The translations under genes were made by a program, and so were the position numbers. Below, piece by piece: positions 241 through 61,958 of a stretch of DNA of 64,000 nt. Source of the stretch: Octopus vulgaris (lineage: Eukaryota); the NCBI GenBank assembly GCA_951406725.2, contig OX597820.1:2542001-2606000 (forward strand), given 5' to 3'. How positions within the stretch are numbered: position 1 is the stretch's first letter; every line of letters begins with the position of its first letter. The notes under the pieces were generated by a model. That model was not told the DNA's origin. It did no database searches and was given only the letters and a program-made list of their open reading frames with translations.

Positions 241-297
241 GTTGAAGCTCTGATGATGGAATATCATTTATTTCCCTGAAACAGCTGTAAGACCAAC
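241..297 (+). ncRNA. Hammerhead ribozyme-like motif (type I, Penelope pLTR type), partly degenerate
   Basis: CTGATGA (250-256), stem II ggaata/tatttcc, GAAA (278-281), palindromic stem III ACAGCTGT, GTA triplet (287-289). Stem I is imperfect (gttg..ct / ag..caac). Confidence 0.65.
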
Positions 298-1461
298 TTT
301 CTATTTATAAATGTTCCAGAAATATCACATTGCCTTGGCCTTGTCTCATTTTATTTAACCTATACACGCTCACACATGACCTATCTTAGACTCCTCACTC
401 ATGCTATTATTGAACCAGGAGTTTAACAGTGGTCCTTCTGTAGCACTTACATAGCCTCATCTGCCTTTTGGCTCTTCTGGATACCAAAACCTCTCATACT
501 ATATATATATATATACAAACACACACACAATTTTGACAAATAATGAGAACAGCTATTCGACCCCCACCACCACCACCATATCTGGTGGATAAATATTCTT
601 TCACCATTTAACATCCGCCTTCCATGCTGGCATGTGTGGATTAACAATACTATCATTGGTGTCATGTATAAAGTTTGTATTTATGAAGCACTTTACTAAA
701 GAATGTTAGCAATTGCCTCCATGCCTGTCTGAAGATAGTTAACTGGTTTCATGCTTGAAGGACTTTAACGGTGTATATATATTTAGTATTGGTACATTTA
801 TTGGTTGTTTTTGTATGCATACAGCTGATATTATACTTGCTCCACTCCTGATTGATCAAAACCATTCCGACCATGACCATCTCATCTATTATTGTTGCTT
901 TTTAACATTCATGTATCTTATACTATATTCCCTAATCTGGTGTTAGAGATAATCTTGTGTTTAAACCTTTAGCATTCAGATGACTCTTTCAAACTTAATC
1001 CTTATTGAATTGCATTGTTTTGAACTAATCCTGGATTATCTTCTAGCCTCACGATTTTATTTTCAGAATGACATTGTAGAGTAGGTGTGAAAGGCTAGAT
1101 CTGGCCAGTTTGAACAGAAAACAGGTCAGTTGTTTGGATCTAATACAACCAGTTTAAGTACTAAAATGTTTGATTACCAAATATCTATTCAAAACAGCCA
1201 GATTAAAATTCCAGGCAACAATCAATATTTAATCAGTCAACGAACACTGAGAAAGGCATGAAAAAATTCAATAAATTCTATTGAAAAGAAGGGCAAAACC
1301 CATGTTTGCATGGGGTGTGTCAGTGCAGGATTCAGATTTAGTGAAAAGATTTTAAGTTACACAAGGTTTGGTGGCCCCTTAATAAAAAAAAAAATGGCAC
1401 CAGAATGTTCCAAGAAAGGATAACAATTTTGAGGAACCGGCAGATTATAAAGTGCCTTAAT

Positions 1462-2291
1462 CAGTGGTTCTCAACTAGGGACCGCATAAACAGTAAATTG
1501 GGGATCTACAGTAGTATTTTAAGGATTCATAAAAAAAATTTCATCTCACAGGATATCTTTATTGCAAAAAACGTATTTCTTTTACATAGATTAACCCTTT
1601 TGTTACTGTATTTATTTTGAGATGCTCTGTGTTTTTTTTTTTTTTCAATTGCTTTGCTTTAAACATAACAAAAAATTTAGTAAAATAACTTAGTAATAAT
1701 TAAGCTGGTGTTAGGAACATAAATTGTGACTAAGGTTTGGTGGAAGATTTTAATTCAGAACTTTTGAAAACAAGACATTTGTAATACAGAACCAGAACTG
1801 GTTTCAGCTGGGTTGGTATCGAAAGGGTTAAGAATTGTTTCTCTATTATATATTTTAACCCTTTCATTACAGTATTTATTTTGAGATGCTCTGAGTTTCT
1901 TTCAATTATTTTTAGATATAACAAAGAATTTAGTAAAATAACTTAGTAATAATTAAGCTAGTGTTAGGAACATAAATTGTGACTAAGGTTTGGTGGAAGA
2001 TTTTAATTCAAAACTTACGGAAACAAGACATTTGTAATACAGAACCAGAACTGGTTTCAGCTGGGTTGGTATCAAAAAGGTTAACTTGTTTCCGGCCACT
2101 GAAACGTGTTCTCCCAGAGAGTGCTAATGCCAACCTACGTAAATGAATGGGTGAAAACCAAATAGGAAATTTTGAAAGAAGTCACTGTAAAACTAGTTTC
2201 TAAACACCAAATGGCTCTGGGGCAGTGGGGCCCAGCAGAGTAAAAAAGTACCCAAAGGGGTTCATAAATAAAAACTGGTGGAGAAACACTG
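1462..2291. mobile_element. hAT (Charlie-like) MITE interrupted by two piggyBac-type MITEs
   Basis: Imperfect TIRs cagtggttctcaac ... gtggagaaacactg. No recognisable TSD. Confidence 0.45.
1595..2080 (+). mobile_element. Two adjacent copies of a piggyBac-type MITE (1595-1827 and 1859-2080)
   Basis: TTAA|CCCTTT ... AAAGGG|TTAA ends (second copy ends AAAAGG|TTAA); near-identical interiors. A third copy lies inverted at 18977-19185. Confidence 0.75.
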
Positions 2292-2769
2292 GTACAGATA
2301 ATTTGTTTTATCGTGACTTTTTTGCTTGTACTTCTTCTAGTGGCTGATTGGGAATCACCAACGCTTTTCTTGCCTCTAAAGTTTTTGACATACTTGAGGT
2401 TGAGTCTGGCTGTTTTTCAAAGCTGGCATAAATAGTCAAGGAGTCTCCAAGAATTGCTGCAAAATTAAGAAGTTGTTATCAATAATGCTTCATGTAAATT
2501 GCTAAACAACTCAGTTAAATTCTCATCCATGTGTCACATCACTGCAAAAGTATCTCCTTCCAAGACAATGATGGAGCAACTTCTCTATGGTCACTTGATC
2601 TGCTAGAAGTAGCAGTTAATTCTCTTACATTACACTCTACTGTCAAAGGAAATTAAAAAAAAAAAAAGTACACATTGGTTTATGAATTTACTGAGTACAT
2701 AAAAAGGCCAGAGGGTCATGGGTGGAACCATAGATCTCTTCAAGCAGGGATGATCTGGTTTTAACAAAT

Positions 2770-4355: not shown

Positions 4356-4912
4356 GCTGACATTGGCAGGATCATTATGGTGCCAGACGAAATGCTTGGT
4401 AGCATTTCCTCCAGCCTTTTATGTTCTGGTTTCAAATCCTGCTGAGGTCGGATTTGTCTATCATCCTTTCAATAACAAAAGGACCTTGTGCCTAGAGTTG
4501 TTAGTCTAGTCATCTCTTTTACCAAGCAACTGAGTTACAAGGACATAAACAAACCAACATCAGCTACCAAGCAGCAAAGGGACAAATGCATATATATACA
4601 TACATATGCCAGTTCCGCCTGACTGGCTCCCATGCCAGTGGCACATAAAAAGCAGCATCCGAATGTGGCCGATGCCAGTACTTCCTGACTGGCTCCTGTG
4701 CTGGTGGCATGTAAAAAACCCTATCCAAACGTGACAAATGCCAGGGTTGCCTGACTGGCTCCTGTACCAGTGGCATGTAAAAGTACCCACTACACTCTCA
4801 GAGTCAGGCAGCATTGGCATCGGCTACGATTAGATGGTGCTTTTTACATGCCACCAGCATAGAAGCCAATCGGGACTGGGTGGGGGTGGGGGATCTGTAG
4901 AAATATTGGGCA

Positions 4913-4944
4913 TCAAATTGACAAAGAAATCATATCAAAAGACC
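4913..4944 (-). CDS. Tentative terminal exon of the PAN-domain gene (GSFDMISLSI*)
   Basis: tttcag acceptor; phase 1 matches the donor at 7488; short hydrophobic end then TGA. Other candidate acceptors exist, so this is weak. Confidence 0.3.
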
Positions 4945-6770: not shown

Positions 6771-6863
6771 GCACACACATGCACACACAGACACATGTGC
6801 ATGCACACAAACACACACACACATAAACACACACACACATAAACACACGCACATGCACACACA

Positions 6864-7366
6864 TATGGTACGACCACACTTGGAATTCGCATCATCAGTT
6901 TGGAATCCCTATCTTGCTCAGAACATTGACCTCCTGGAATCTGTCCAGAGACGTGCAACCAAACGCATACCCTCCATCAGACACCTACCATACTCTGAGC
7001 ACCTTGTTTCCCTGGGCATGGATTCACTGAAGCTCCGGCTTCTGGTGATGGACTTGGTAAACACCCACAAAGTTATCAACCACCTCACCACCAACAACAA
7101 CACTGAACACCTTTTTGATCTCCATGTGTCTAACACACATGGACATGCCTACAAAGTCAGAAAACAGCACAGCTCCCATGACTTTCGGAAACATTTCTTC
7201 ACGCTCAGAGTTGCTGAAGCGTGGAATAAACTGCCTGCGTCAGTTGTTGACTGCCATGACACTGCATCCTTTAAGGCCCTCATGCTTTCCGAAATCCGCC
7301 GAAACTACACCTGATTATATATGCACTTTAGATGAGTTGTAGTGCACCTGAGCACTGTACACAATG

Positions 7367-7400: not shown

Positions 7401-7402
<2 letters not shown>

Positions 7403-27857: not shown

Positions 27858-27896
<39 letters not shown>

Positions 27897-27976
27897 TTCA
27901 AAATGTAATCACATGTGAATTGCTGGTGATTTTTTCCTCCGTCTTCCTTTTCTCTTGGACTTTTCCTCTATCTCCT

Positions 27977-28011
27977 GTTTCTGAAGAAGAGTTTTGCTTG
28001 AAACGTAAAAC
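27977..28011 (+). ncRNA. Minimal type-I hammerhead ribozyme motif
   Basis: gttt-CTGAAGA-a-gagt/ttt/gctt-GAAA-c-GTA-aaac. Perfect 4-bp stem I, wobble-rich stem II, minimal palindromic ACGT stem III. Confidence 0.7.
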
Positions 28012-28793
28012 CACATTTCTTTCCTTCCCTGAGTGTCTGCTAATACTTTACATGTACCACATCCTCAAATTGTTTTTTGTGTTTGTTCTTATTTTGTATT
28101 TACTATATATATATATATACACACACACATATACAGACACATACACACAAACAACAACCTCAACAATCGTTTCACTAGGTCAGACCACACTCCTCACTGC
28201 AACACTCAACTTTTACGTCACTGGCATTGAAAGGACCTCAATGCATTGAAAAGTTACTGGCTTTTAAACTGTACACCTAACGGAAGAGGTATCATAATAG
28301 CATCATAGCTAAACACCCTTTATATCTTAAACAATCCACATCAAGTCATCTAAAACAGCTTTTCCTCAGACTCCAACTACCACAGCTGCCTGATGGACAG
28401 TTCCCTAACTTTCCTCAGACCACATCCATCCATTTTCACCGGCAATTATTCCTGAGAAGGTTAGGGATGAGGGTAGAGTCCTCAGACACACCCTGCATAA
28501 GATCTAGAAGAAGCAAGCATCATTACACTTTCTAGTTCAATTCCTAAGCACAACCAACTGTGGAATAAATGGCAGAAAAAAAATAATTGTTGGAATGGTC
28601 TTTATTTTGCCGTTACAATGGATAAACAACTGCTTCGAGTTGTTGCTTAAAGAATAGTAGTTCTGCAGTCCATTTCATAGGTAGTTATGCTCATCTGTGA
28701 GGTGACTGCTAGGAGACTGATGGCAAAAAGGGAAGAGAAGAAGTAAGAGAATTTAATTCTCTATGTTGGCGAGTAGAGAGTTGTATAGTCCTT

Positions 28794-36987: not shown

Positions 36988-37038
36988 ATTCGAACCTGTG
37001 TTCTTATTCCTAAGGTATTTTTTGATGTTATTATTATT

Positions 37039-37112
37039 CAGGTCACTGGGTGGAATCGAACTCAGAATCTTGGGGTTAGTAGCCTGTGCTCTTAACCACT
37101 ACGCCATATGCC
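37039..37112 (-). mobile_element. tRNA-derived SINE head with (AAT)n tail
   Basis: gggcatatggcgtagtggttaagagc (A box) ... gagttcgattcc (B box); acceptor stem does not pair. Confidence 0.7.
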
Positions 37113-37327
37113 CCATGGGCAGTTATGGAATGGAGTGAATTTTAGGGTTTATAAATCTAATATTTTCCTATCCCTCCTTAATACCAATTCCCATATGCTA
37201 TTCTGTTGTGTCCTAGAATATGTGCTGCTTCTTTTAGTTTTCGTATTTTCCAGTGGTGTTCTCTGTCTATTATTTTAACTTCATCCCATAGGGGGAGGTG
37301 GTCTCCATTTTTTCATACCTGATAAAG

Positions 37328-37370
37328 ACACCTGATGAAAGCTGGAAAGTATATCAGCTAAAACGTGTTG
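37328..37370 (+). ncRNA. Degenerate hammerhead motif (probably inactive)
   Basis: acac-CTGATGA-a-agctg/loop/cagct-AAAA-c-gtgt. GAAA is changed to AAAA and the cleavage triplet is disrupted. Confidence 0.5.
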
Positions 37371-39430
37371 ACAACAAACAAGATGAGAAATATCCGTCAG
37401 ATGTCTATAATGTAAATAATTCCTCATCTCTTAACTATAGAACTTTGACAAAATTGTCCATCACTTATTTTTCACTTAAAGACACCAAGGCACGAGCGAT
37501 CAACTGCTGTCCTTCAGTTCAGGGTATCAATATTTCTTGATAAGAATCTTCTTCAACATACTTCAGGAGGAGAGATGTTCTTTCAGTGGTAAGGCAAAAT
37601 ACTTTTATGAAGTGGATTTGTGAAAAACAAAGTTTGAACTTTGAAAGATGTATCAAAACGATAATTCCAGTTGTTTTATAATGTAAAGAATACACTACCA
37701 GCTTGTGTTACTGAGACTGCCAAATTAAATGATTTTGTCTAGAGGTGTGGAAATTGTGATGACATTTGGTTGAAATCTGATGAAGGATTGTGTTTGTCTG
37801 TGTGTATGCACACGTATTTTGTTTTCTTGTAAATTTCTTTGTCACCTCTCCGTGTGCCACCCCACCCCGCCCGACTTTGTTTCATCATAGCTTTCAGAAA
37901 AATGGATATTTTTATAAAGAAATCTTTTACAAATACGTATCAGATGGAGCAGATTCTGATTACATTGGAATTTAATGTGAACAAACTGGTGGGTGTGCAC
38001 ACATACATAACTGACACACAGCACTTGTATATCTACAAAATGAAATTTGAAATTTTGTAAAAAAATTCACGATGTGTGTCAGTAGGTATCTGTTCATCAT
38101 TTTTTCTCATTAAATTCCAATCAGAATCTACACCAAATGAGAGTTCTTGGTTCTTTTGTTCTTTTACTTGTTTCAGTCATTTGACTGGCCATGCTGGAGT
38201 ACTGCCTTTAGTTGGACAAATCAACCTCATGACTTATTCTTTGTATGCCTAATACTTATTCTAACGGTATCTTTTGCTGTACTGCTAAGTTACGGGGACA
38301 TAAACACACCAACATCAGTTGTCAAGCGATGGTGGGGGACAAACACAGACACACATACACGACGGGCTTCTTTCAGTTTCTGTCTACCAAATCCACTCAC
38401 AAGGCTTTGGTTGGCCTGAGGTTATAGAAGACACTAGCCCAAGGTGCCACGCAGTGGGACTGAACCTGGAACCATGTGGTTGGGAAGCAGAAGATTATTT
38501 CATTAAAAAATACCAATTTTCTGAAAGTTATGAGGCAACAGTCAACTCATGTGAATTAACCAAAACTTTATTCTCCTTCTCCTGGAAAATTTTTCACAAA
38601 TTACAACATAATTGGAATCTAAACCATCTGAAAGGTATTTGCAGAAAATTTCATTAGAAAGATGTCCATTCTTCTAAAAGTCATGAGGGAATAAATCATG
38701 GTGGTGGTGGTGGGGTGTCACTTGTATAGATATGTTTCCTTTTTCATTGTCATTTATCGTAATGGATGGTCACTAATGGTAGAAATGCATATCCCCCACC
38801 ACAACTACCAGTTGTTTCCTGGTCATGCCACCACTTTTCTTTCAACCTTTCCTTCTTTTTTCGTCCACCTGTCTCTCTCCCTACCTTTCTGTCATTAACT
38901 CTCTCTACCTACGTTTCTAATGCTTCTGTTTACCTGACTTTCCAACGTTTTTCTGTCTTTATTCACCTTTGTGCTACTCTACAGAGTTGCTACAGCATAG
39001 TCAACAGGGACAATGTACTAATCGGGAAGAGTTTGTTGTCGGTCAAAGAGTGGGATGGAAAGAATTTTGGTGATAGGAACCAGCCAAATTCATCATCACC
39101 ATCAGCATGGAAGGCAGACGTTAACTGATGATGATTATCATCATCAGGCTTTCGCTAGTCTAAATGATAACTCTGTCATTTCTATACAGCCACCCCTCTC
39201 TACCACCACCACCCCCTTCCACCACATAAATTCATTCAAATCTTTTTTTTTTTTGTTAAGTAGAAATAAAACTAGTGGTTCAAAAATTCAAGAGGAGTGG
39301 CTGTGTGGTAAGTAGCTTGCTTACCAACCACACGATTATGGGTTCAGTCCCACTGTGTGGCATAGTGGGTGTCTTTTACTATAGCCTCCGGTCAACCAAA
39401 GCCTTGTGAGTGGAAACTGAAAGAAGCTCG

Positions 39431-44790: not shown

Positions 44791-44896
44791 AGTAGGTAGT
44801 CATACTCGTATATCCACAGTTTATATATATATATATATATATTTAGTGTAGGAAGAAATGGAGCTGAACGAAGATTTAACAAAATTCCTTTTTATT

Positions 44897-44982
44897 ATTT
44901 TCTACATATGTTTCAAAGGCTGCAAAGTCCCTAATTCGGATTGAATAAGGAGACCATTTTGCAGCCTTCTCTTCAGGAAAAT
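44897..44982 (-). ncRNA. Type-I hammerhead ribozyme, apparently intact core
   Basis: attttc-CTGAAGA-gaaggctgcaaa...tttgcagccttt-GAAA-catat-GTA-gaaaat. 6-bp stem I, 12-bp or longer stem II, palindromic ACATATGT stem III. Confidence 0.85.
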
Positions 44983-45519
44983 CCAGGAACTTAATTCTCC
45001 AACAAAATGCGCATCAAACTTTTCGACAAACGCTCGCGAGGAGCCCATGGGATAAATGGCACAGAACTGTCTCTCAATATGCGTTGACGCTAGGCTGGGT
45101 GAAAGCAGACGAAAAAGTCCGTTGAGATAAATCAAGGTCAAAATCTGGCTAACAGGGGGGGTTGCAGGAAAATCAAAGAGTGTGAATGTATTCTGTATGA
45201 CTGGTGTCAATATTCGAATTGTTTTAAGAATGAGTGCTATAGTGCTTGGATGTGAGAAATTGCGTTCATGTATGTGTGTGTGCGTCTATGTATGTGTGGC
45301 AGTGTGTTTAGAAGGCTGCTAGGAAGAGAGATATAGCAGCTATTAATGGTCAAGCAGCTGAAAAAAACTGTGTCTGTGTGTTCGTCTGTAACCAGTTGGG
45401 TTTGAGACCTCATGGTCGTAACCTCAACCGTGATTTTTCTGTTGTGATTTTTGCTACCCAGGTATCGGTTATCTTTTGAATAATCTGTAACAAGATAATT
45501 CATTTATCCATTTCAATAA

Positions 45520-45550
<31 letters not shown>

Positions 45551-48415: not shown

Positions 48416-49282
48416 AGAATGTGTGTGTGTGTGTGTATAAAACTACAATTTTTAAAAAAGAGGATATACAGGACAATGTAGTTCTTATGTCTGAAGAAAG
48501 AAATAAAAGACAGAACAGCCTTTGATTGGGACAGCTTCAGTCACAGGTCTGTATGGTCAGCACTGACTTCATTTGATGAGTGTGTGTTCAAGTGGTGATG
48601 TTTGTTTCTAGCACATAAATATGTCCAGGCTGTCTATTGTTCAAATGAAAAGGGGAGATTATTATTGCCTTCATTCAATACCCATCAACAGGCACCCTCA
48701 TCATTTTTATCCTGTATATCAAGGTAGCTCAAAGTCACCAGGGCAGATGAAGGCCTTCAGCACTTTAGCTGCTCACCTAAGAGAACATAACCCCATACGA
48801 ATCCTCAATCCTGATAACTACTGGGGACATAGCACATGTTGCACCAGACCAACACATGTTTGAAGGATGGGAGTGTGACTGGTTTTGCACAAACCATGCC
48901 AAGAAATCCCTGGTGCCTTTTGGAATGATTTATTAAGTGTTTAAAAAAGGGTAAGAGAGTAAACCTTACAGAAAATCTGGAGGGAGGGACCCTACAGCAA
49001 AAATGTACCAATAGCTGGCATCCCCTGCAGGTCCATGGATGCTTCCTTTGTGGCACATCCATGAGTGGGGAAGTGGTAAGTGCACATGCTTCTAGAAACA
49101 GCCCAGGCACAGCAGAGGTGCTTAACTTACCATCTCTGCAACACACTCAACAACAAAAAAGAGGCCAACTACTTCAGGTGATGAACTTTTGTTCAGCCTA
49201 TCACTCTAATATTACAAATCCCTCCAACAATCACAGCAGGCTGGTATTCTTTCCACTTCAATGATTTTATAGTCTTCCTTAC

Positions 49283-49371
49283 CTGAACATTAATTTGATG
49301 ACATTTTTCCTCTTTACAAGAGTCTTTATTCCCTGGGCAATCAGCATCATGGTCACAGATACCATTGTTAA
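49283..49371 (-). CDS. TTC17: TTC17 exon (FNNGICDHDADCPGNKDSCKEEKCHQINVQ)
   Basis: ttttgcag acceptor, CAG|gtaagg donor, 89 nt, phase 1 to 0. Confidence 0.7.
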
Positions 49372-50069
49372 CTGCAAAAGAGATAAAGTAGAGTTTAAGG
49401 AATTGTCTAGACAGATGCATTACCCAAACCCTTTACTCTAAATACCTTCGTCTCCATTTGTCCAACTTGCTGATTGTTTAACGTTGCAGTCAACATGTCT
49501 GTCTGAACGGCTGCATGTGTGTCCATTGTTTCGCCTGACTGGATTTGGTTTCAGTATTTATTTATCTGTTGAATTGTGTGCAAATACGTTTAGTTGCATT
49601 CTACAGATATGTTGTATATATACCTGTCTGCTTAGTTAGATGTATAACAATGTTGAGTTGCTTCTGTCTAGTCCTGTGTGTTTAGTCAGATGTCCAGTTG
49701 CATCTGTATATGTTCAACCACATGTGCACTTACCAGTTTAATTGTATGCACATCGGTTTAGTTGCATGTATACCTATCTGTTCAATTTCATGTTTAGTTA
49801 GATGCGCACCTATCTGTTATCTGTTGGTCACAAGTGTATTTAGCTGTGTATCCATGTGTTAGTCTTATATGCACCTATCTCATCTTATTGTGTGATCACG
49901 TGTATGGCTGCCCTTCTTTTAAACTCATTTCTTCCTCATGTCTTTATATGACAGAGTCCAGCTATTGTTTAGATGTCTTTCAGGCTTTCAACATTTGTAT
50001 TTGAGAATGTGTGTGAAAGACAGAGAGATAGAGAGAAATAAGGAGAGTTGTCCTGGAAGAGACCCTTAC

Positions 50070-50241
50070 ATTCTGTAGCAGCCATTACTGCAGCTCCAAG
50101 ACCTCCTTGTGATGACATGGCTGAAGCACAAGATTCCAGTTTGATCGGAATAATTGTGCAGGTTTGAGTACAATGACCATCACAGTTGGAAGATTTGGAA
50201 TGGCTTCGTGTTTCAATGACACACTTTTCAGCTCCGTTCTC
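50070..50241 (-). CDS. TTC17: TTC17 exon (ENGAEKCVIETRSHSKSSNCDGHCTQTC...AATE)
   Basis: ttcttatag acceptor, T|gtaagg donor, 172 nt, phase 0 to 1. Not in the ORF track. Confidence 0.75.
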
Positions 50242-51495
50242 CTATAAGAAATAAAAAAAATTAATTTAAAAAATAAAAATCAATCTGAAAAATTTATTGA
50301 CTATTTATTGATTATATGTCAGCATAGGATTTAACTTGACACATTTAATCAGACAACATCCATCCACTTCCAGTGAATCTGGTCCCCCATAATAAGGTAT
50401 GAGACATTTCAGCACAGCTGTTTGGCATCATTGATTCGACTCTGACTCATGTGACATCAGATGTTTTAATGCTTCTCTTGTTTTCCCCAATCACTCTCTC
50501 TATGTATGTAGGTATATTTCTATTTATGTGTCTGAGGAGAGTGAAAAGTGCTGATGTCAATCGTGTTCAGTTAGAAAATTGTAATGTCACTCTTTCTTAC
50601 TCTGCTCTCTCTCTCTCTCTATATATATGTTTATTTCTGCACTTAGTAGTCCTGGATACATTCATCAGCATCATCATGGTTCTCACTTGCTTTTGTCTGG
50701 TCCATGCTTGCTGTTATAATGTAGATCCTCGTCCACTTGTATGTTGTTGTCGGGACTGCAATATTCTTGTTGCCACTGTTATATTGTGGTGGTATTCCAT
50801 GTCCTACTATCTCTGACTCCTCTATCGTGCTTTCACTGATAATTCCACAGGACAATGACTTTGAAATGTCTACCTTGACAGTAACTTAAACTCATATATA
50901 TCACGTAACTGAGAAACTCATACAACTACTACTACTACTGACCGACTCTGGCTTTATAATGGCTGGATCATACCACTTTGCCACATGGGAAAGGAAGTAC
51001 CATTTTCACTATAACACTTGCAAGGATCAGACAAGACTACATTTGAGCAAAGTTTCTAGGGCCAGATGCCTTTGCTGGTGCCAACCCTTACCTGTTTCAA
51101 AACGAGGTAATAATTCTGCCCCCACCCCCAGTTTACTGAACAATAAACAGCCCAGATATGGTTACACAGAAACAAATAACACTACAAAGGAGTCTTTTGT
51201 TTACTGAGACCACGCAACATGTCCGTGTGGTAGACTGCAAAGCAAAGCACACAATCACTACAATAACTGATGCTTTTGTTTACAATCAGCAAACCTGAAG
51301 ATGAGGGGAAGTAAGAAGGAATTCACTCCCACAAATGCACACATTTAAGCTCAAAATTTACGAACCCACAACCAGTGGTTGATATAATTTATCCAATCGC
51401 ATAAAGTCATTTACCAGTTCAATAACATGTCCGAAGTCAAAGGAAAATATAAGAAAATAACAAAAAAACAGCAAAGGTTATTTTGGTTGCCTTAC

Positions 51496-51792
51496 AGTTT
51501 GACATATGACCCTGCTCTCTCCTTGAGGAATGTTGGTAGAATACATTATTTTCTGTTGACAATTCGGACTTGTAGTGGAAGAATCGGTCATGCCATTTGT
51601 ATCACTCAGATGGTGCGAGGCCTCACTCTGCGCCGGTTTGTGAAACTTCTGTTGACATTTCACTGCCCGCAGTGCACTGTAAGCTTCTTTCAGACCGTAT
51701 GGTTCTACAAGAGCTTGTTCGTAATGCCACACAGCACCTGTATAGTTTTGGGTGGCAACAAGTAAATTGCCCAAAAAATAGTTGGTCAAAGG
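51496..51792 (-). CDS. TTC17: TTC17 exon (PLTNYFLGNLLVATQNYTGAVWHYEQAL...ESRVICQT), TPR
   Basis: Resembles human TTC17 PLTFLSLGNAYLALKNISGALEAFRQAL as recalled. 297 nt, canonical sites. Confidence 0.88.
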
Positions 51793-54062
51793 CTGGAAAT
51801 AAACAAAAAAGTAAGGAATGAAAGGTTTAACATACTCCAAGCATTCAAAACTGGGAAAAAAGCCCCCATAATTATTATAAAACTAGATTTTCTTTACTCT
51901 ATAAAACTCTAAAGCTTAGAGTCTGCTTAAATAATTTCTTTTTTTTTTTTTTTTTTCATAAGTGTGGTAAGTTTGCTTTCCAGTGACATGGTTCCAGGTT
52001 CAGTCCCACTGTATGGCACCTTGGACAACAGCCTTCTATTAGACTCGGGTCAACTAAAGCCATGTGAGTGGATTTGATAGATGGAAACTGAAAGAAGCCT
52101 GTTGTATATATGTGTGTGTGTTCTCTCACCAACACTTAATAACCAGTGTTGGTATGTTTACATCCTGCACCTTAGTTTGGTAAAAGAGACCAATAGAATA
52201 AGTACCGGGCTTAAAAATAACTACTGGGATCAATTCGTTTGACTAAAATTTTTCAAGGTGGTGCCCCAGCATGGCCACAATCTAATGACTGAAACAAGTA
52301 AAAGATGTTCTCCAACAGCATCTTCCTTATCCACTCCTTCATCCATGCTTGGAAATCAAGTTTGTTTTTACCTTCAATCATCCTATTTCACTGCCTGTTA
52401 CTCTTTTTTTTTTTCTGGATCCAGTCATTGGATTGTGTCCTGCTGGACTATCACCTTCCACGATTTTCTTTGACCATATCAATGCCAGTTTTGCTAGAGA
52501 TAAGAGCAAAATCAAAGTTGATGTTGAAGGTCAAATGGCAAAAACTGTCACATTTTGTCCACCTTATCAGGACTGAGAACTTTGGTGCCCACCTCCTCCA
52601 AGGCTGGATGGACAGAAGCAAAAGCACGAATGGAGCATCTCCAAAATGTGGCTTAGAAAACCATCCTCGTCATCATTTAACATCCATGTTCCATGCTGGT
52701 ATAAGTTGGATGGTTTAACAAGGATTCAATGGGTGGAAGGACTACATCGTACTCCAGTGTCTGCTCTGGCCTGGTTTCTACAGCTGGATGCCCTTCCAAA
52801 TACTTTACAGTGTCTACTGGGTATTTTCCCCATGCAGCTGGCACTAACGAAGGTCACCACACAGCTTGCAAGAGTGTGAGCCATAAATGTGTGTGGGGGG
52901 AGACATCGTTATGCTTGGAAAATAAGGAGGAGAGAAGGTTAAGTTATGAGAATAAAAAAGGGGGTGGAGCCGAATAGGTTTCTTGCTGTGGATGAATTAC
53001 ATAGGTTTTACACATTTTAGAAGAGAGAATGAGGGTAACTGGGTGAAGCTGGAAAGTGGGGTCTTTATATGTGGTAATGGCAAAAAATATAAGAAATTCT
53101 AGACAAACCAATATGAGTATGAGCAGTTGGTTAGTGGGTTGTAATGTTGTCGTTTGTCTGCTTTCCATGCTGGCATGGGTTGGACGGTTTGACTTAGAAC
53201 TGGCAAGCCAGGAGGTTGCATCGGGCTCCAGTCTGATTTGGCCTGGTTTCTACAGCTGGGTGCCCTTCTTAATGCCAACCACCCTAAGAGTGTAGTGGTT
53301 GCTTTTTATGTGCAACTGGCACGGGAGCCAGTCAGGTGGCACTGGCATCGGCCACGCTCAAATGGTGCTTTTTTTACATAAATCTTCGATGACAATGATG
53401 CAATAAGGAGAGAAAGAGCTGCACTACTGCTATGACAGAGTACCACAAATGTTCATAAGGGGTCAACATGCTTAGAAATAATTCCTGGAGAATTGAGGAA
53501 TTAAATATCTGGACTAAAATTAGGAATTAGGAAGCAATATTTTCATTGTATAATAATTAATGTCCTAAACACTAATCACATGAAGAAAGTGAGACACTGA
53601 AGCTCTTGAAAATTATGTTGAACTGTTTGAAGCCATTGTTGTTCACCTCTTTAGCAAAGACACCTGCTCCTACTCCTCTATCATGTTTTCATAGCCCTCA
53701 ATACTCTACCCCACCCAGTCGAGGGGGCCTTGTCTTGTGTATATTTGGTGGTCTCACCAGGTGCTGGTGCTATGGAAAATGCCCCCACCCCCACCCCGTA
53801 CACTTTGTGTGAAGTGGTTGGCATTAAGAAGGCCATGCAAAAGCAGACACTGGAATTTGGTACAGCCATCTGGTTCACCAGGGCCTGTCAAGCCATCCAA
53901 CTGATACTAGCATAGAAAAGGGGACATTAAATGATGATGATGATGTTTGAATCGAGATTCCCTCATCCATAAATACTCTGTTTCAAGATTGAAGAGGAAA
54001 AAGAAAACAAATAAACAATATCCAACAAACAAAATAAGCAAAACCATTGAATTCTTTCTCAC

Positions 54063-54287
54063 CTCTACACTGTTAATCATAAGAGCATCTTTTATGACAA
54101 CAATTGCATCGTCATAGCGACCAACTCTATATAGAATGCTGCCAAGATTGATGAGAGGGACATCTCGGTAGAGTTCAGGAACTGTGTACAGGGCCCGTCT
54201 TATACATTCAATTCCATAGAAAGCATTGCCCAATATTCTCCAATAGAGTCCAGCTAGGTTGAAAAGAATCCAGTTTGGACTAATACT
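54063..54287 (-). CDS. TTC17: TTC17 exon (PNWILFNLAGLYWRILGNAFYGIECIRRAL...DVPLINLGSILYR...INSVE), TPRs
   Basis: Matches the TTC17 signature WLILNEAGLYWRAVGN..CLQRAL..DVPLVNLANLL..AINSSE as recalled. 225 nt, canonical sites. Confidence 0.92.
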
Positions 54288-55595
54288 CTAAAATAGACAA
54301 ATAGTTGTGTTTATAATTATGAAGGAAATGAATAGAAAATGAAAGGACAAATTTGTTTTATAAGACTGTCTAGAATTAACATTAACATCCTTGTTATCAA
54401 CAGATCATAGTTGTTGCTCAAATTACTGTGATTTTTTATAAGCCATAATATTTGAATATAAGAGTCATGCCCCACATAATGGTCCCTTTATTAAGGCACA
54501 AAGCCAGCAATTTTGAGGGAAGCAGGTCAGTTGATTCATTGAGCTAATATTAAACTGGTACTTGATGTTATTGACTACGAAAGGATGAAAGGCAAAGTTT
54601 GACGATGATGGGAAGTGAATTCCTAGTATAAAAAGCCAGAAGAAAAACCATAGCTCCAATGATTCTGAGCTTTGTGGCTTTCTTCTTTAGTGACATCTGC
54701 TGAGATTGTTGAGGGCTGTGTGGATGGTCACTGGAATGTACTTTGGTGGTCCAAACAGAATCTTTGACTGATTGTTGACCCACGTTATCACAGATTAATC
54801 CAGGATAAGCATAACAGTTTACAATTGATTGCCGTATGTTATACTGAGTCATTGATAAATGAGGATAGATTCATTAGGTTTTTGGCCAAAGGAACTGCCA
54901 GGCATTAGTCTGAATGTCACGGTATATTCCACCATGGAATATTTGATTATGAAAGCGGCACTGAGGCAGAGAAAGCAATTAGCTCTCTACATGATCTATT
55001 CAGAATACATTTTTATCAGCTTGTGTGAAACCCTGTAGCTGAGTGGTTAGTGTGTCTGGCTCATGACATGATTGTGAGTTCAATTCCCAGGTGGCACATT
55101 GTGTCCTTAGGGCAAGTCACTTTATTTCATGTTGCTCCAGTCCACTCAGCTGGCAAAACTGAATAGTACCAGTAATTCAAAGGGAGCCAACCCTGTCACA
55201 CTGAATCTCCCTGAGAACTATTTTTATGGGTACACAGGTGTCTGTAACAAGTGTTCCAGTTGATGCGCTCGTGAAATTCACAGACACGCATACCCTTAGG
55301 ATAGTCCTCAGGGAGAGTCAGCATGACAAAGGATGTGTCAAGTCTGGCCCTTTGAAATACAGGTACTACTAATTTTGGTCAGCTGAGTGGACTGGAGCAA
55401 TGTGGAATAAAGTGCCTTGCAGAACTGAACTTAACAACCTTACAGTTGTGAGCCAGATACTCTTAACTCTGTACCTTCACAATTCATGCACCTTGACTAA
55501 TACAAGTAGAATTCAAGACATTACTGACAGCAAGGATGGCAATGGTGTTTTTTCTTTGTTAGGATTACTTTAAAGAAAGCATCAACCTTACTAAC

Positions 55596-55673
55596 CTGTT
55601 TTAAAGCAGTAAGAATCCTCTGTCCAACCTCTTCTTTGGTGACAATTCCGTTGTTTACGTGGTCCAGGAGAAT
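55596..55673 (-). CDS. TTC17: TTC17 exon (ILLDHVNNGIVTKEEVGQRILTALKQ)
   Basis: Resembles human ILLSRINNYTIPEEEIGSFLFHAINK. cttgcag acceptor, gttagt donor, 78 nt. Confidence 0.85.
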
Positions 55674-56660
55674 CTGCAAGAAATACACAACAAACAACAC
55701 AGTTCACCAAACACCTTCCTCTGCACCTTTAAAAATATATAAAGTAAACAGGGTTGGACTGTTATGATTCTTTCGTTATTGCTGTTATCAGAATGGGGTC
55801 GGGGGATGTGAAGCAGATTTGCTAACGAATATGTAATCAAGAAAAAATAGCCATAATAAATGCAAGCATGGCTAGGTGGTCAAAAAACTCACTTTGCAAC
55901 CACGTGGTTTTTGGTTCAGTCCCACTGTGTAGCAGGTGTCTTCTACAAGAGCCTAGGGCCAGCCAATGTCTTGTGAGTGAATTTGGTAGACAGAAACTGT
56001 GTGGAAACCTGTTGTGTGTGTACGAGTGCTCTCTATGTCTTTGCATCTGTTTGTCCTCATCATTGCATAACTGATGTTGGCTTGTTTATATCCCTGTAAT
56101 TTTAGCAGTTTGGCAAAATAAGTACCAGATTTACAAATGAGTACTGGGGTCGATCTATTCGACCCCAGAAGGCAGTGTCCCTAGCATGGCTACAGTCCAG
56201 TGACTGAAGCAAGTAGAAGATGGTACTGCAGCCTCACTTCTCTGAACGGGATACATGGAATTTATTGAGGCATATTTGATATGGCTGGATGCCCTTCCTG
56301 TCGCCAACCCTTATTTGTTTGCAACCAAGATAATGCAAGACCAGACATGTTTTCATGGAAGACTGGAAGCAAATGACCCTGCTTGTATGACTGATACTCA
56401 GTCACAGCTATTACATGATGTCAAAACCAGAAGATACCTACATACACACATGATGAGCTTCTTTCAGTTTCCTTATCCCAAAATCAATTCAGAAGTTTTT
56501 GGTCAGCTTAAGGCTGTAGGAGAAGACCTTTACCCAAGGTGCCATGCAATGGGACTACCTGAAACCACACAGTTTAGGAATCAAACTTCTCAACCAAACA
56601 GCCATGTGTGTGTGTGTGTGTGTGTGTGTGTAGTTAGTATCCGTTAGTTACAGAACTTAC

Positions 56661-56850
56661 CTGTCTCATGGCTGGCTCAGGAAACTTCAAAGCAAAGTTA
56701 GCCCGGTCAGCCACAGACCGGATGTGATCATAAGTGAGAACACTACCATCAGTGATATCCAAAAGTGGGGTACAAATGGGTGGATACCATGGAAGGGGAT
56801 GTTCATCTCCAGCATAAAGACTCTGAGCTTCCGAAAGTAAAGCACGAACT
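56661..56850 (-). CDS. TTC17: TTC17 exon (VRALLSEAQSL...PWYPPICTP...YDHIRSVADRANFALKFPEPAMRQ)
   Basis: ctttcag acceptor, CAG|gtaagt donor, 190 nt, phase 2 to 0, consistent with neighbouring exons. Confidence 0.85.
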
Positions 56851-57862
56851 CTGAAAGGATAAAATGCAAACAGTAAAGACAGGTGAGATTATTGACAACA
56901 ACTACCATATCAGCAATATATATATCTTTTAGCCGTCACTAGACTGTGGCCATGCTGCAGCACTGCTCTGATGAATTTTAGTCGAAGAATGCAATACTTT
57001 TGCATTTTCTCAAGCCTGGTGCTTATTCTACTGGTTTGTTTTACCAAACTACTGTTACAGGGATGTAAACACACCAACACTGGTTGTCAAGAGACAAACA
57101 TAGACACACACATACAGGATGGGCTTCTTTAAGTCTTGTCTACCAAATCTACTCAAAAGGCTTTGGTTGGCCTGATGCTTCAGTAGAAGACACTTGCCCA
57201 AGGTGCCATGCAATGGAATTGAACCCAGGACTATGTGGTTGGGAAGCAAGCTTCTTGCCCCCATCATGTCTATATATGTATATTGACAACTTCTGTGTAA
57301 GCAATGTATATGGTTATGAAAAAAAAAAGGTTTTAATTTCGAATAGGTGCTCACTTTGCAACTACTTGGTTCTAGGTTCAGTCCCACTGCATGGCACCTT
57401 GGGCAAGTATCTTCTACTATAGCCCTTGGGCTGAACAATGCCCTGTGAGTAAATTTGCTAGATAGAGACTGTGCGGAAGCCTATCATGTGTGTTTGTGTT
57501 TGTTCCTTTATATACCACATGTCAACCTGTATTGGTTTGTTTGCATCCCTGTTATTTCATAACTTAGAGGTTGGCAAAAGAGACCAACATAACTACCAGA
57601 CTTATATACGTGTATGTGTGTGTGTTTGTCCCCCACTCTCTGACCACTGCCTGACAACCAGTGTTGGTGTATTTATGTCCCCTGTAACTTAGTGGTTTCA
57701 GTAAAAGAGACTGACAGAGTAAGTACCTGGGGCTTAAGAAGGGAATAAGTCGATTCATGTGACTAAAACACCTTGAAGGCAATGCCCCAGCATGGCCGCA
57801 GTCTAATGACTGCAACAAGTAAAAGAATGGAAGAAAGATGAATGACATCACTTTCTACTTAC

Positions 57863-57990
57863 TCAAATCCTTTGTTTTCAGGGGACAGGTAAACAGTCGA
57901 CATATTCTGAGGATCAGGAAACTTTTGAACATACATATCACATTCTTCCTTTGATGGCCAGTCTACGGGCATTTCCTTGTGATGATGGCT
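57863..57990 (-). CDS. TTC17: TTC17 exon (…DWPSKEECDMYVQKFPDPQNMSTVYLSPENKGF)
   Basis: Resembles human WPKRADC..PTYFLPPENKGL. tttttcag acceptor, GA|gtaagt donor, 128 nt. No upstream exons were found in the window. Confidence 0.88.
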
Positions 57991-60564
57991 CTGAAAAAGC
58001 AGAGGAGACGTACATACATACACACACGCACACACACACATGTATATATATTTAATCTTGATATAAAAAGACAGCAAACAGAAAATATGACCTGCCTACC
58101 TCTCTCTATATATATATACATGTATATATATATATATATGTATATATATAATTTTAAAAAATGTGTTGTAAATGAACAAACGATTATATACTAAATCCAC
58201 AGCCAGACAGAAAACATGGGTCACCAACTGCTGGTCAGTTATTGGCCAGAGTGGTCAAATGCAATTTCAGCCATTCTTGACAATATTGCTTCCACTCTGG
58301 AGGTTCCGACAAGAAACTTGCCAGGAATGGGACCTAAACATTACAGAACGAGACGAGGGACAAAACAAGAAACAGAGTAAAGGCACTGGGCCATACAAAG
58401 ATGACAATAATAATAATAATAATAATACGTGTACAACAAAAAGCCTTGGGGTTAAGAAATAATTAAGATTCAGCTGAATTTGGTACTTAAGTTGAGGCAC
58501 CGAGTCAGTCTGGGATTATCCTCACTGCTTTGAAGTAAGGTGAAAAAAAGGCAAATGAGTAAGAAGAATGTCCAGGTATCAGTGCCTTACGGCAGTTCCA
58601 GGTGGATCCATTTAATTGATCAATTGAAGCAGTACATCAATTTGGAATACAACCGCCTTCCTCGGATGTATACAACTATTATCGCTTTCCAACATACAGG
58701 ATACTCCATCATTATCATTTGATGTCCGTTTTCCATGCTGGCATGGGTTGGATGGTTTGACTGGGGTTTGGGAAGCCAGGAGGCTGCACCAGGCCCCAAT
58801 CTGATCTGGCAGAGTTTCTACAGCTGGATGCCCTTCCTAATGCCAACCACTCTGAAAGTGTAGTGGGTGCTTTTTACATGCCACCAGCACGGAAGCCAAA
58901 GTGTCATTTTAGCAAATTTTACATCAGAACTATTATTGTAGCAGAATGAAGTTAGGGAGAAAACACCCCAACTTTAATTTGGAGAGGTAGAAGAAAGTAA
59001 GAACGGGAGTCAGGAGATGGTCATATAGCTACATTTATCTCCTTCGCCTTGTCACAATGCAAAGATCTAATGCCTTTTTGCTTTATATATATATAAACAA
59101 TTGAATAAGGTGGAGTTAACAAGAAAGAGCCCAGTTGGAGATTTATTTGTAATCACTACAATTGTTTCTGCGCAACACAGCTCTCCGGGCCTGCAGGTAT
59201 TTGGATCTGTAACCATTTCTCTGTAGTACTACTTGATAGCACCAGGTGAAATCTGCAGGACAAGCTTTATACTGTACTCTATTACGTTCCTAACAGAATA
59301 TAACAGAACTACACACACACACATATATAGGCCGGGATGCAGACATCTAAAATTGCTCTAGTTTTTTTGTTTTTGTGACCACCACATGGCAACAACATGA
59401 TATTTTGCACAACGGTAGAGAAAAATATGCATAACAACCACACAAACTCGTCAAGCGTGGAAAGTGCACATTAATGAGTTATCATACTTTTAATATTTTG
59501 CAATTATGTCTGTTGGATTCTTGAGTCCTCAGTTGGAAACCAGGCCAATGGCGTTGTGTGTTGGACTGGTTTTTTGTTGTGAAGGAAAGATTGTGATGTA
59601 CAGAATGTCGAAACAAATCTAATTTCAGAATAAGATTGCAAACTTAAATTTACATCCTATTAGAAATATTTCCACTTACTGAAGCACATTTGCAAACCAT
59701 TAAAATTAAATGGGGGAGGGGTGTTGTGAAGAGTAAATTTTGTCTGACCCCTGAAGCATGTCAAATCTTAAAAAAATACATTTAATCTTTAAAAATGATG
59801 ATATGATGATAATAACAATAATACTTGTAATATTAACAAGACCAAAGAAACTCATCATTTTTCTCTTGTCTTCCTCATCCTTGTCTTACACTCTTCTGCC
59901 CTCAACCTCTTCTCTCATGCCTGTACCTCTGTCTCTCATGCTCGCTCTCACTCTCTCTATTTCTTGCATGTATGCACACACACACACACACACACACATA
60001 TGCGTACATGCACAGACATCCTCCTCTCTCTCTCTCTCTCCCACTCCACATCTCTTCATTCCAAACAGAAAATCTTGAGAAACGATAAAAGTATCCTCCC
60101 ACATAATATTGATTCCAATCTGCTTTACTATAACTAACTCAGACATTTGACACACGTGGCATAAAACAGTTATTGATGTCCATTTTCAGCTTGTTTTCAT
60201 TAATAACACTCCATGTTGGTAGCTTATTAATGACTGCATAAATTGAATCAAATAAATTCAAAGGTCCCAAAGCAGTTTCTTATATGATCAGGTTGCATTG
60301 TCCATGTACGGCATGACAAATACCTCATCTGGCCATCGTTTCAAAGCTGTGTCTAACATCCTATACATTTTCAGTTAATGCAGGATGAAAACTTTACCAC
60401 AGAGGTAAATGTCTGTAAAATAACATTTGTGGCTTTAAATATGGGAATTCAGTAACTCACTGGAGAAGTGACAAACTATGCTTCCAATGAATTACTGTTG
60501 AATTTGATGCATGAAGATGCATGCAGGTAAAATTGAACTTTACAGGTAATCCAAGTCACCTTTC

Positions 60565-61010
60565 TCATTTGAGGTGACCTCTCGCACACCTCTCCTCTTC
60601 TACCTCATTGTCTGCATCATCTTCATCACCTTCCACATCATTTTCTGCTTGAGCTAAATTTTGGCAATGAATGCATCTACACAGGTCTGTGCAGGTTCCC
60701 TTGTGCTGTCGACACAAGCACCGACCCCTTTCCTTCACCTTTGGGTTCCTCACAGCTATTCTTCTTGCAACTGCAAAAAGTAATCTCAAGCAAAGAACTT
60801 GGTGCAGGTGGAAGATCGCCACTCCCCCCCCTCCACTACCTCTGTAGTGGTATCTTACTTCCCATCCGTGGTTGTGTGGGCTGGGGAAACTGTACAAGAC
60901 ATTTGCTATGTACTCCTTCCTGCTAGGTAGTTTGCCCTCGTCAGGTTTTTCACCATGGCATCATGTGTGGGGGGCATAGTCATCTCTGCTTTAGTGCCCA
61001 TCAACAACTC
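60565..61010 (-). mobile_element. Academ-like DNA transposon C-terminal relic (XPG-end motif plus Cys-rich finger)
   Basis: MPPTHDAMVKNLTRANYLA..PSPHNHGW..RCLCRQHKGTCTDLCRCIHCQN followed by an acidic tail; frameshifted. Confidence 0.6.
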
Positions 61011-61550
61011 ATCACTACAAGATGCACGTGTACCTTGGCCTTCCGCTTCCGGGTTTGTTTTGCTCACATCATCCAATTAGAGCAAGTCGTTCTGCTTTTT
61101 CCGTGAGGACCCTTTCCAGACGATTTTTTAAAATTCTTTCAACACTATAGCACATTCTTTGACCTTATTGAAACTTTTCTCTGACAATGGGTCTTAATCA
61201 CATGCATGTAACAAAATGCCAAAGACTTCCCCTCAGAAGCGTCCACATCAGAAGACAAGAAAGACGACGTGTGCCATGTGCGCTGAATGCAACGAGGCAT
61301 ATGATTGGTCAACTTAGGAGTTGTCTTCCAAAATGCAAATTAAACAACCATGCTGGTTGGTTTACGATTATTCTGAAAAGTTATTTTTCACACATTTTCT
61401 CAATTTTTTATAAAAAAGTGCAACTTTTACGCCTGTCAGGTTTGAGGGATGACTTTTATTATATTTCTAAATAATGTGAGAATTTGAGATAGTTGCCTGA
61501 TGGTGGCCACAAAAAGTCGATGTTTGGGATTTTGCATATCAACATACATA

Positions 61551-61958
61551 TATAATTATTTTATGTATGAGAAAAGAAAACGGAGAAACTGACATATAAA
61601 CATCAATTTATTAGAACTTAATACAATTCTGAACAATACCCAACTCAATTTCACCTACAGCTGTTTCCATGCCCAATTGAATTAAATCAAATTTCCATAT
61701 CGAATATGGGGAAGAATTTGATAGAAAGGAGCTACATTCTGATGGGTTGTTTGACCCCTGATAGACTCCCCTGATGAAATACCTAATTAACGATATTCAA
61801 TATGGAAATTTAATTTAATTTCTTAGATTGATTCAATTGGGCATGGAAACAGTTGTAGGTGAAACTGAGTTGGATATTGTTCAGAATATTTATTATGTTC
61901 TAATAAATTGATGTCAACTTCTCTGTTTTCTTTTCTCATTCATAAAAAAAATTATAAT
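61551..61958. repeat. Inverted pair of Penelope-like pLTR segments
   Basis: About 61551-61707 is the reverse complement of about 61793-61958. Both arms carry the GAAAcag[c/t]tGTAggtga hammerhead half. Confidence 0.85.
61766..61862 (+). ncRNA. Hammerhead motif with long stem II, decayed
   Basis: ctccc-CTGATGA (61771-61777), atacctaattaa...ttcaattgggcatg, GAAA (61846-61849), cagtt-GTA-ggtga. The minus-arm copy keeps the ACAGCTGT palindrome. Confidence 0.65.

What the first reader, a model, noticed from the sequence alone, without database searches (positions are those of the whole stretch)
241..61862. Five hammerhead motifs from several repeat families in 64 kb: a possible large cephalopod ribozyme mobilome
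Seen: hammerhead-core motifs at 241-297(+), 27977-28011(+), 37328-37370(+), 44897-44982(-) and 61766-61862(+). Their stems II differ, but all have palindromic stem III seeds (ACAGCTGT, ACGT, ACATATGT). Most are not attached to a coding ORF. Inference: several non-autonomous Penelope-derived or retrozyme-like families may be mobilised in trans. At this density the genome would hold very many copies, many inside introns.
Basis: partly seen in the sequence, partly recalled or inferred. Interest (0 to 1): 0.75.

Follow-up and report, generated by a model that had tools for sequence, protein, structure and literature searches.

The report
Hammerhead tails of octopus Penelope retrotransposons
The five self-cutting-RNA motifs are present, but four are damaged, and they are tail ends of five repeat families that are, or likely derive from, Penelope-like jumping genes, with about 150,000 such tails estimated in this octopus genome; the unusual one carries a tRNA-like start signal and was likely read by RNA polymerase III.

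Summary
All five motifs exist and each belongs to a dispersed repeat family, but only 44897 is intact in the window. They are 3' ends (pseudo-LTRs) of 5'-truncated Penelope-like elements (PLEs), not stand-alone retrozymes. 44897 and 61766 lead upstream into Hydra-type RT/endonuclease, 37328 into Poseidon-type, and 27977 is related to a young Neptune element; no ORF was found for 241. A 1-Mb genome sample gives 52 copies/Mb (about 146,000; 98,000-199,000), 11 of 52 with an intact core, so the window is typical. Stems covary in the 44897 lineage, which has intact ORFs in head-to-tail arrays. PLE hammerheads, also in Octopus, are published. Least ordinary is the Poseidon family: a tRNA-like head precedes the start codon and hammerhead, 31 of 34 head-bearing copy arms begin at that head, and a near-full-length copy has no TTTT. 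This suggests Pol III transcription and SINE-like spread. A true 359-bp tandem retrozyme exists elsewhere in the genome. Cleavage and circles are untested. The scan noted the same picture earlier on other DNA of this genome.

The parts
1..515 (+). Family A: 3' end of a PLE-like repeat ending at (TA)n. Decayed hammerhead at about 246-293 (core 250-256, GAAA 278-281, palindrome ACAGCTGT, U.U at the base of stem II). An inverted partner lies about 430 bp before the window start. Coding parent not found.
27894..28100 (+). Family B1: about 210-bp repeat between (TA)n tracts with a minimal hammerhead at 27977-28011 (extra A before stem II, palindrome ACGT). Related to the 3' end of a full-length Neptune PLE; its own ORF was not found.
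36989..37324 (-). Family C, inverted arm: C-terminus of a Poseidon-type GIY-YIG endonuclease (37324-37178), then a tRNA-like head (starts 37113; A box 37106-37096, B box 37063-37052), then the spacer before the hammerhead.
37325..37444 (+). Family C, sense arm: dead hammerhead at 37328-37370 (G12A; 3-nt in-frame deletion at the cut site) and 3' tail.
44822..45399 (-). Family D: 578-bp 3' UTR end of a young Hydra-like PLE with an intact hammerhead at 44897-44982 (6-bp stem I, 12-bp stem II, palindrome ACATATGT; predicted cut between 44903 and 44902).
45398..45536 (+). Inverted terminal piece of the family D insertion.
61536..61766 (-). Family E, inverted arm with half a hammerhead (61621-61725; CUGAUGA missing).
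61767..62105 (+). Family E, sense arm: decayed hammerhead (core 61771-61777, GAAA 61846-61849) and tail of an old Hydra-type PLE; in a TTC17 intron, antisense.
49265..57993 (-). Context: seven coding exons of the host gene TTC17; further exons lie beyond the window's end.

Best explanation
The five motifs are minimal type I hammerheads at the 3' ends of five repeat families; three lead into Penelope-like coding sequence, two likely derive from such elements, and four of the five window copies are likely unable to cut. Shown: families D, E and C continue upstream into RT/GIY-YIG coding sequence, and a relative of B sits at both ends of an intact Neptune ORF. Full-length D-lineage units lie head to tail with one hammerhead per unit. 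Inferred mechanism: a tandem or pLTR-ORF-pLTR locus is transcribed. Two hammerheads would pair through their palindromic stem III and could cut out a unit-length RNA. The element's own RT and endonuclease copy RNA from the 3' tail into AT-rich targets and usually stop early or invert, leaving short hammerhead-bearing ends that then decay, much of it at CpG. Because whole hammerheads are kept in the copies, the template was uncut or re-ligated RNA. Family C adds a tRNA-derived A/B-box head upstream of its start codon and hammerhead. This head likely recruited Pol III, so that short copies were re-transcribed and spread in trans like a SINE.
For: D: 29 other loci 97-100% identical over the query. 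Longer copies run into RT and endonuclease. About 30 of 136 scored RT matches lie in open frames of 880 aa or more. Arrays of 3.6-kb units carry a hammerhead per unit. Nine of 22 pairs change on both sides, 0 of 500 shuffles reach that, slid controls give 0-2, and the palindrome is kept through a UA-to-CG change (10 hand-picked sequences). E: endonuclease and hammerhead are collinear in 4 of 5 long loci compared, the fifth covering only the UTR. C: 19 of 19 other loci fetched with the endonuclease end were aligned; of 25 fetched with the protein, all extend into the endonuclease-end/head model and 23 show a downstream hammerhead. B: aligns to the Neptune 3' end with score 93 against a shuffle maximum of 67 in 300; three loci show hammerhead-ORF-hammerhead. 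Pol III case: 31 of 34 head-bearing arms (24 of 27 insertions) start between -24 and +9 of the A box. The best match among 27 distinct tRNA sequences from this genome is tRNA-Arg(TCT), 50-51 identical positions of about 74. A 2,571-nt copy has 23 TTT runs and no TTTT, against 28 and 35 runs of TTTT or longer in Hydra and Neptune units.
Against: No coding parent was found for A: about 850 nt of shared upstream sequence has no PLE protein match, and an apparent link to an endonuclease was a nested insertion. None was found for B1 either; its longest copies start at nearly one point next to (TA)n. Copy 5' ends do not pile up at the predicted cut sites in five families, so there is no genomic footprint of cleavage. 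B stems are conserved rather than covarying (1 of 10 pairs). Rfam and ARAGORN did not call the C head a tRNA. The TTTT depletion is not significant under synonymous shuffling of the open parts alone (P=0.07), and copies share ancestry. Eleven of the 31 clustered starts lie inside the A box (+1 to +9), some at palindromic junctions. D lacks the CxCX5C linker of Hydra elements.
Confidence: 0.85

Rival explanations
1. The motifs are independent non-autonomous retrozyme families that amplify through small circular RNAs and borrow PLE enzymes.
For: B1 copies are short, flanked by (TA)n and start at nearly one point. A has no ORF within about 850 nt. A genuine 359-bp tandem hammerhead array family exists in the genome. 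A 2026 preprint derives animal retrozymes from pLTRs.
Against: None of the five is a tandem array in the window. C, D and E continue into coding sequence. The 359-bp family is absent from the window.
Confidence: 0.1
2. The pile-up of family C 5' ends at the tRNA-like head reflects RT stalling or template switching at a structured insert (an old SINE in the 3' UTR), with transcription by Pol II as described for other PLEs.
For: Several starts sit at palindromic junctions inside the A box. A similar head occurs on another repeat (L165). The strand is A-rich (38% A), which lowers the expected number of T runs.
Against: Ends cluster at the 5' edge of the head, with the longest at -15/-14 (6 of 34), not at its 3' edge where a stalled RT would stop; no start falls between +10 and +30. 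C and G runs of four are present while T runs stop at three.
Confidence: 0.3
3. The hammerhead fold is kept as a protein-binding or priming structure, and cleavage is dispensable for spread.
For: A very young Neptune family has a CUGUUGA core (A6U) in all 15 loci read. A C subfamily without the cut site amplified (6 of 42 copies not selected for it). In the anole PLE, ribozyme mutants still insert in vitro and no RNA ends map to the cut (PMC11167929).
Against: The D lineage keeps the full core while stems covary across subfamilies.
Confidence: 0.35
4. Chance matches to a short motif.
For: Very relaxed patterns are common in shuffles (9 hits against a mean of 3.1), and four window copies fail the strict descriptor.
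Against: Every motif is part of a family with 179-4,117 first-look candidates and, in many copies, a complete hammerhead anatomy.
Confidence: 0.01

Closest known systems
Minimal type I hammerheads of metazoan PLEs (Cervera and de la Pena 2014, PMC4209133; parts 1-2 of 4 of the text read)
   Same: Short stem I, extra nucleotide before stem II (B, C), palindromic stem III, mostly single motifs from truncated PLEs, close pairs on opposite strands, many families per genome.
   Different: Counts there were about 2,000-9,000 descriptor hits per genome; here about 146,000 family copies by profile search, about a fifth with an intact core. Cephalopods do not appear in the parts read.
Hydra clade of PLEs, including Hydra-1_oBim of Octopus bimaculoides (Craig et al. 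2021, PMC8557442; passages, section 11 and supplement part 2 read)
   Same: C-terminal GIY-YIG without CCHH, DKT motif, CxxC and CxH motifs, (TA)n targets, hammerhead near the 3' end. The U.U closing of stem II seen in family A is common in their table.
   Different: D has another hammerhead than Hydra-1_oBim, a 3.6-kb unit, an Asn/Ser-rich insert and no CxCX5C linker, and it has intact tandem copies.
Poseidon_Ac of the green anole (Frangieh et al. 2024, PMC11167929; passages read)
   Same: Penelope/Poseidon protein type, hammerhead overlapping the ORF start, 3' tail.
   Different: Family C has a tRNA-like A/B-box head upstream and lacks TTTT on its sense strand; no such promoter appears in the passages read.
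Schistosoma Sm-alpha/Sj-alpha SINE-like elements (as reviewed in PMC6765202; passages read)
   Same: Pol III promoter followed by a hammerhead in a short high-copy repeat.
   Different: Those occur as tandem non-coding repeats; family C's head-hammerhead unit is the end repeat of a protein-coding PLE.
Animal non-LTR retrozymes (PMC7229834, passages read; bioRxiv 10.64898/2026.07.22.740005, abstract and discussion read)
   Same: The 359-bp array family outside the window fits: tandem, non-coding, one type I hammerhead per unit.
   Different: None of the five window motifs is in such an array.

Membership tests
Minimal type I hammerhead of PLEs | CUGANGA and GAAA core, stems I and II, NUH cut site | tested here: met
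   Met by window copy D and by many family copies: core pattern in 21/28 A, 14/22 B, 17/30 C, 17/22 D and 6/21 E distinct copies (loci chosen by similarity). Window copy C fails (G12A).
Minimal type I hammerhead of PLEs | Palindromic stem III allowing a dimer | tested here: met
   A, B and D in the window; kept by a compensatory change in the D lineage. The window copy of E is not palindromic.
Minimal type I hammerhead of PLEs | Stem covariation | tested here: met
   D lineage: 9 of 22 pairs. B: 1 of 10, inconclusive. A, C and E not counted.
Minimal type I hammerhead of PLEs | Self-cleavage | not testable with these tools
   Needs RNA assays; no pile-up of copy ends at the cut sites.
PLE (any clade) | RT plus GIY-YIG ORF upstream of the repeat | tested here: met
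   C, D, E.
PLE (any clade) | RT plus GIY-YIG ORF for families A and B1 | tested here: inconclusive
   None found within the fetched flanks; B1 is homologous to a Neptune 3' end.
PLE (any clade) | 5' truncation with tandem or inverted partial copies | tested here: met
   Inverted arms at A, C, D and E in or beside the window and in many loci; tandem units.
Hydra clade (family D) | DKT motif, no CCHH, CxxC and CxH at the endonuclease end | tested here: met
   Of 109 homologues, 85 have DKT/S and none has ADKG.
Hydra clade (family D) | CxCX5C linker; RWK motif; length under 3 kb | tested here: not met
   Linker absent, RWL for RWK, 3.6-kb unit, whereas 85 of 93 homologues with a complete end have the linker. 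D is therefore called Hydra-like, not filed as a member.
Hydra clade (family E) | CxCX5C linker and CxxC motif | tested here: met
   Both are seen in the decayed frame of L110; other motifs could not be read.
Penelope/Poseidon clade (family C) | DKG motif, C-terminal endonuclease with CCHH, no linker zinc finger | tested here: met
   read by eye in broken copies; no tree was built.
Neptune clade (relative B3) | CX2-5CxxC linker, CCHH, DKG, (TA)n at the 3' end | tested here: met
   Loci L330-L332.
Non-LTR retrozyme | Tandem non-coding monomers of about 170-400 nt, each with a hammerhead | tested here: not met
   Not met by the five window motifs; met by the 359-bp family at L124.
Non-LTR retrozyme | Circular RNA in vivo | not testable with these tools
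   Only contigs of runs guessed to be RNA were available.
SINE (short family C copies) | tRNA-derived head with A and B boxes at the copy's 5' end | tested here: met
   box consensus recalled, and Rfam did not call a tRNA.
SINE (short family C copies) | Separate non-autonomous lineage | tested here: not met
   The same head lies in the 3' UTR of endonuclease-bearing copies, so it is part of the autonomous element.
SINE (short family C copies) | Transcription by Pol III | not testable with these tools
   Indirect only: start clustering and lack of TTTT.

The most novel reading that the evidence does not exclude
Family C was a protein-coding Penelope/Poseidon retrotransposon transcribed end to end by RNA polymerase III from a captured tRNA-Arg head. 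Its end repeat (head, start codon, hammerhead, tail) doubled as a SINE that the PLE machinery copied to tens of thousands of sites, while its 2.5-kb body was purged of TTTT terminators. This would be a SINE-PLE partnership inside one element and a Pol III-made mRNA.
Probability: 0.45. Interest if true: 0.72.

Novelty: new variant of a known kind. Interest (0 to 1): 0.45.

Why it matters
The bulk finding extends a known rule (PLE ends carry hammerheads) to a genome with roughly 1.5 x 10^5 copies, mostly dead. The useful parts are three. First, young intact Hydra-like and Neptune elements in tandem make the open question of what PLE hammerheads do directly testable, since one family keeps a canonical core and another thrives with A6U. 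Second, family C points to Pol III transcription of a coding retroelement and to SINE-like spread by PLE enzymes; my paper searches did not turn up such a case. Third, autonomous PLEs, their truncated ends and a tandem retrozyme coexist in one genome, which suits tests of the proposed PLE origin of retrozymes.

Tried and rejected
Rfam: no hammerhead hit in the window and no tRNA hit on C heads in five loci or a 141-nt piece. ARAGORN listed 22 weak tRNA calls; one overlapped a C head (L077) and none the window's. Pfam did not recognise the D proteins. An apparent Hydra endonuclease upstream of family A was rejected, because A is a separate inverted insertion behind another element that has its own hammerhead. 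A search with an upstream extension of one B1 copy found only 3 places. No pile-up of 5' ends at cut sites in C, D, B1, B3 or A (samples biased towards hammerhead-bearing copies). Sequencing runs: no RNA holder listed for D. The 359-bp unit was laid on four contig sets guessed to be RNA; contigs cross the unit junction in three of them, but cannot show strand, ends, circles or even RNA origin, so this is not used as evidence. Expression and splicing around the window motifs remain unexamined. No similarity was found between the 359-bp unit and eight PLE loci. Four short motifs from families A-D were absent from the text of the Craig et al. supplement. Lunse et al. 2016 on PLE hammerhead variants is not held (title seen in a reference list only), so A6U and U4C variants may already be described there. 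Two further descriptor hits in the window (41506+, 50668-) were not followed. No phylogenetic tree was built. Supplements of the bioRxiv preprint and of the octopus repeat annotation (PMC13282606) were not seen and may bear on novelty.
Full report
Setting. The window lies in a 2.8-Gb genome (G000). One exon is 100% identical to TTC17 of Octopus bimaculoides and O. sinensis, so the host is an octopus. I call the motifs A (241), B (27977), C (37328), D (44897) and E (61766).

Observation. All five exist as stated. Only D passes a strict descriptor, with 0 of 100 shuffles giving a hit. A, B and D pass a looser one (3 hits against a mean of 0.12). Rfam finds none of them. Each motif belongs to a dispersed family, with first-look candidates of 550 (A), 4,117 (B), 3,049 (C), 1,519 (D) and 179 (E); these are lower bounds. 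Family copies show the complete anatomy more often than the window copies do.

Density. I took 100 stretches of 10 kb at round coordinates on 28 contigs. Profiles of the five families and their relatives gave 5, 21, 21, 5 and 0 hits, or 52 per Mb, which extrapolates to about 146,000 (bootstrap 98,000-199,000). Eleven of the 52 keep an intact core. Five or more hits in 64 kb are expected 27% of the time, so the window is ordinary for this genome. A sequence-independent descriptor gave 13 hits in the first 600 kb, 7 of them in one array, against one hit in ten shuffles.

Family D. The window holds 578 bp of 3' end plus a 139-bp inverted piece. [quoted passage not shown] About 30 of 136 scored RT matches lie in open frames of 880 aa or more. 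Fetched loci show hammerhead-ORF-hammerhead and head-to-tail 3.6-kb units with identical hammerheads. In ten hand-picked lineage members, 9 of 22 pairs change on both sides and the stem III palindrome is preserved. The protein has DKT, CxxC and CxH and no CCHH, as defined for the Hydra clade, but it lacks the CxCX5C linker found in 85 of 93 complete homologues. I call it Hydra-like. A different Hydra family with a hammerhead is already published for Octopus. The window copy lies 4.3 kb downstream of the last TTC17 coding exon found, on the same strand; whether it is transcribed is unknown.

Families E, A and B. E is old (73-91% identity). In four of five long loci compared, a decayed Hydra-type endonuclease is collinear with a 1.2-kb UTR and the hammerhead. 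It lies antisense in a TTC17 intron. A has PLE anatomy (inverted partner, graded 5' ends, (TA)n at the 3' end), but about 850 nt of shared upstream sequence holds no recognisable ORF, and a first apparent link to an endonuclease was a nested insertion. B1 copies are about 210 bp between (TA)n tracts, and their own ORF was not found. They are homologous to the end of a very young family B3 (score 93, shuffle maximum 67). The upstream flank of B3 has at least 40 identical copies, and its full form is a 4.5-kb hammerhead-ORF-hammerhead Neptune element. All 15 B3 loci read have CUGUUGA, that is A6U.

Family C. The window's inverted arm encodes the end of a GIY-YIG endonuclease, and other loci give the order RT, endonuclease, tRNA-like head, (AAT)n, hammerhead, tail. 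The motifs fit Penelope/Poseidon. The family is extinct: 150 scored copies are 78-92% identical to the query copy and the longest open frame is 569 aa. In two natural copies a start codon upstream of the hammerhead reads in frame through it into the RT ORF, and the 3-nt deletion that removes the cut site keeps that frame. The head has A and B boxes (consensus recalled) and best matches the genome's tRNA-Arg(TCT) among 27 distinct tRNA sequences compared; Rfam does not call it a tRNA. In loci not chosen for the endonuclease, 31 of 34 head-bearing arms (24 of 27 insertions) start between -24 and +9 of the A box, six of them at -15 or -14, and three extend further; two loci selected partly by the endonuclease end were left out of that count. 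The window copy is one of the extended kind. A 2,571-nt copy has 23 TTT runs and no TTTT, a second has one TTTT in 2,170 nt, and Hydra and Neptune units have 28 and 35 runs of four or more. By hand, with the observed continuation rate of 0.25, none in 23 has a probability near 0.001. Synonymous shuffling of the open parts gives only P=0.07, and 16 partial copies give 4 observed against 12.8 expected. Oligo-T ends Pol III transcripts. Together this suggests Pol III transcription of the whole element and SINE-like re-amplification of its end repeat. Both are inferred.

Mechanism. Published work proposes that PLE hammerheads act as dimers through the palindrome and cut weakly. In the anole PLE they cut only with protein and are dispensable for insertion in vitro. 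My data fit this: copies keep the whole motif, 5' ends do not pile up at cut sites, and families with altered cores still spread. None of the window motifs has a same-strand intact partner nearby, so none is expected to cut.

Retrozymes. One of the 100 random stretches holds 5.6 tandem copies of a 359-bp hammerhead unit plus an inverted part, in (TA)n, with 2,169 candidates genome-wide. It is absent from the window. It fits published non-LTR retrozymes and the proposed PLE dependence.

Verdict. The system is known; the tRNA-headed Poseidon family, the A6U Neptune family and the linker-less Hydra-like family are variants. A recent octopus repeat annotation reports recently active PLE families and has no mention of ribozymes in its main text (passages). 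Earlier notes of this scan reached the same overall picture and the same reading of family C on other DNA.

Noticed in passing
L124:2100-4763 (G000:C1): Young 359-bp tandem hammerhead array (5.6 copies plus an inverted part) in (TA)n; retrozyme-like family with 2,169 candidates.
   Followed up: partly
L330-L332: Very young full-length Neptune PLE (4.5 kb, ORF over 1,000 codons) whose hammerheads have A6U and U at the cut site.
   Followed up: partly
L304-L305, L310: Head-to-tail arrays of intact 3.6-kb Hydra-like elements with 836-899-codon frames and identical hammerheads.
   Followed up: partly
L128, L238, L246; L150, L249, L258: A-related and B-related subfamilies with CCGANGA (U4C) cores in several copies.
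   Followed up: no
L043 (minus strand, about 150-250 nt behind the endonuclease stop): A further Hydra-type element with a CxCX5C linker and its own hammerhead-like motif, interrupted by a family A insertion.
   Followed up: no
L180, L063, L133, L151, L153: Other hammerhead-like motifs outside the five families, so the genome total is higher than estimated.
   Followed up: no
window 43700-44800 (+): Decayed frames that by eye resemble another PLE's RT end and endonuclease, directly before the family D insertion; not matched by my PLE queries.
   Followed up: no
window 41506 (+) and 50668 (-): Two further descriptor hits with non-palindromic stem III.
   Followed up: no
window 34886-36575 (+): Remains of an LTR-type retrotransposon (DUF7047; weak RNase H and integrase hits).
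   Followed up: no
window 10591-11001 (-): DDE_3 transposase fragment.
   Followed up: no
window 12264-14600 and from 2640: 157-bp tandem array (about 15 units, mostly 91-100% alike) and a 22/44-bp minisatellite.
   Followed up: no
window 26268-26526 and 28824-29220: Near-perfect inverted repeats (96%), MITE-like.
   Followed up: no
window 49265-57993 (-): TTC17 exons; no exons for the last 400 or so residues of gastropod and bivalve TTC17 were found in 69 kb downstream, in line with the 869-aa octopus protein.
   Followed up: partly
L165:5913-5995: A different repeat with a similar tRNA-like head but another body, a possible source of family C's head.
   Followed up: no
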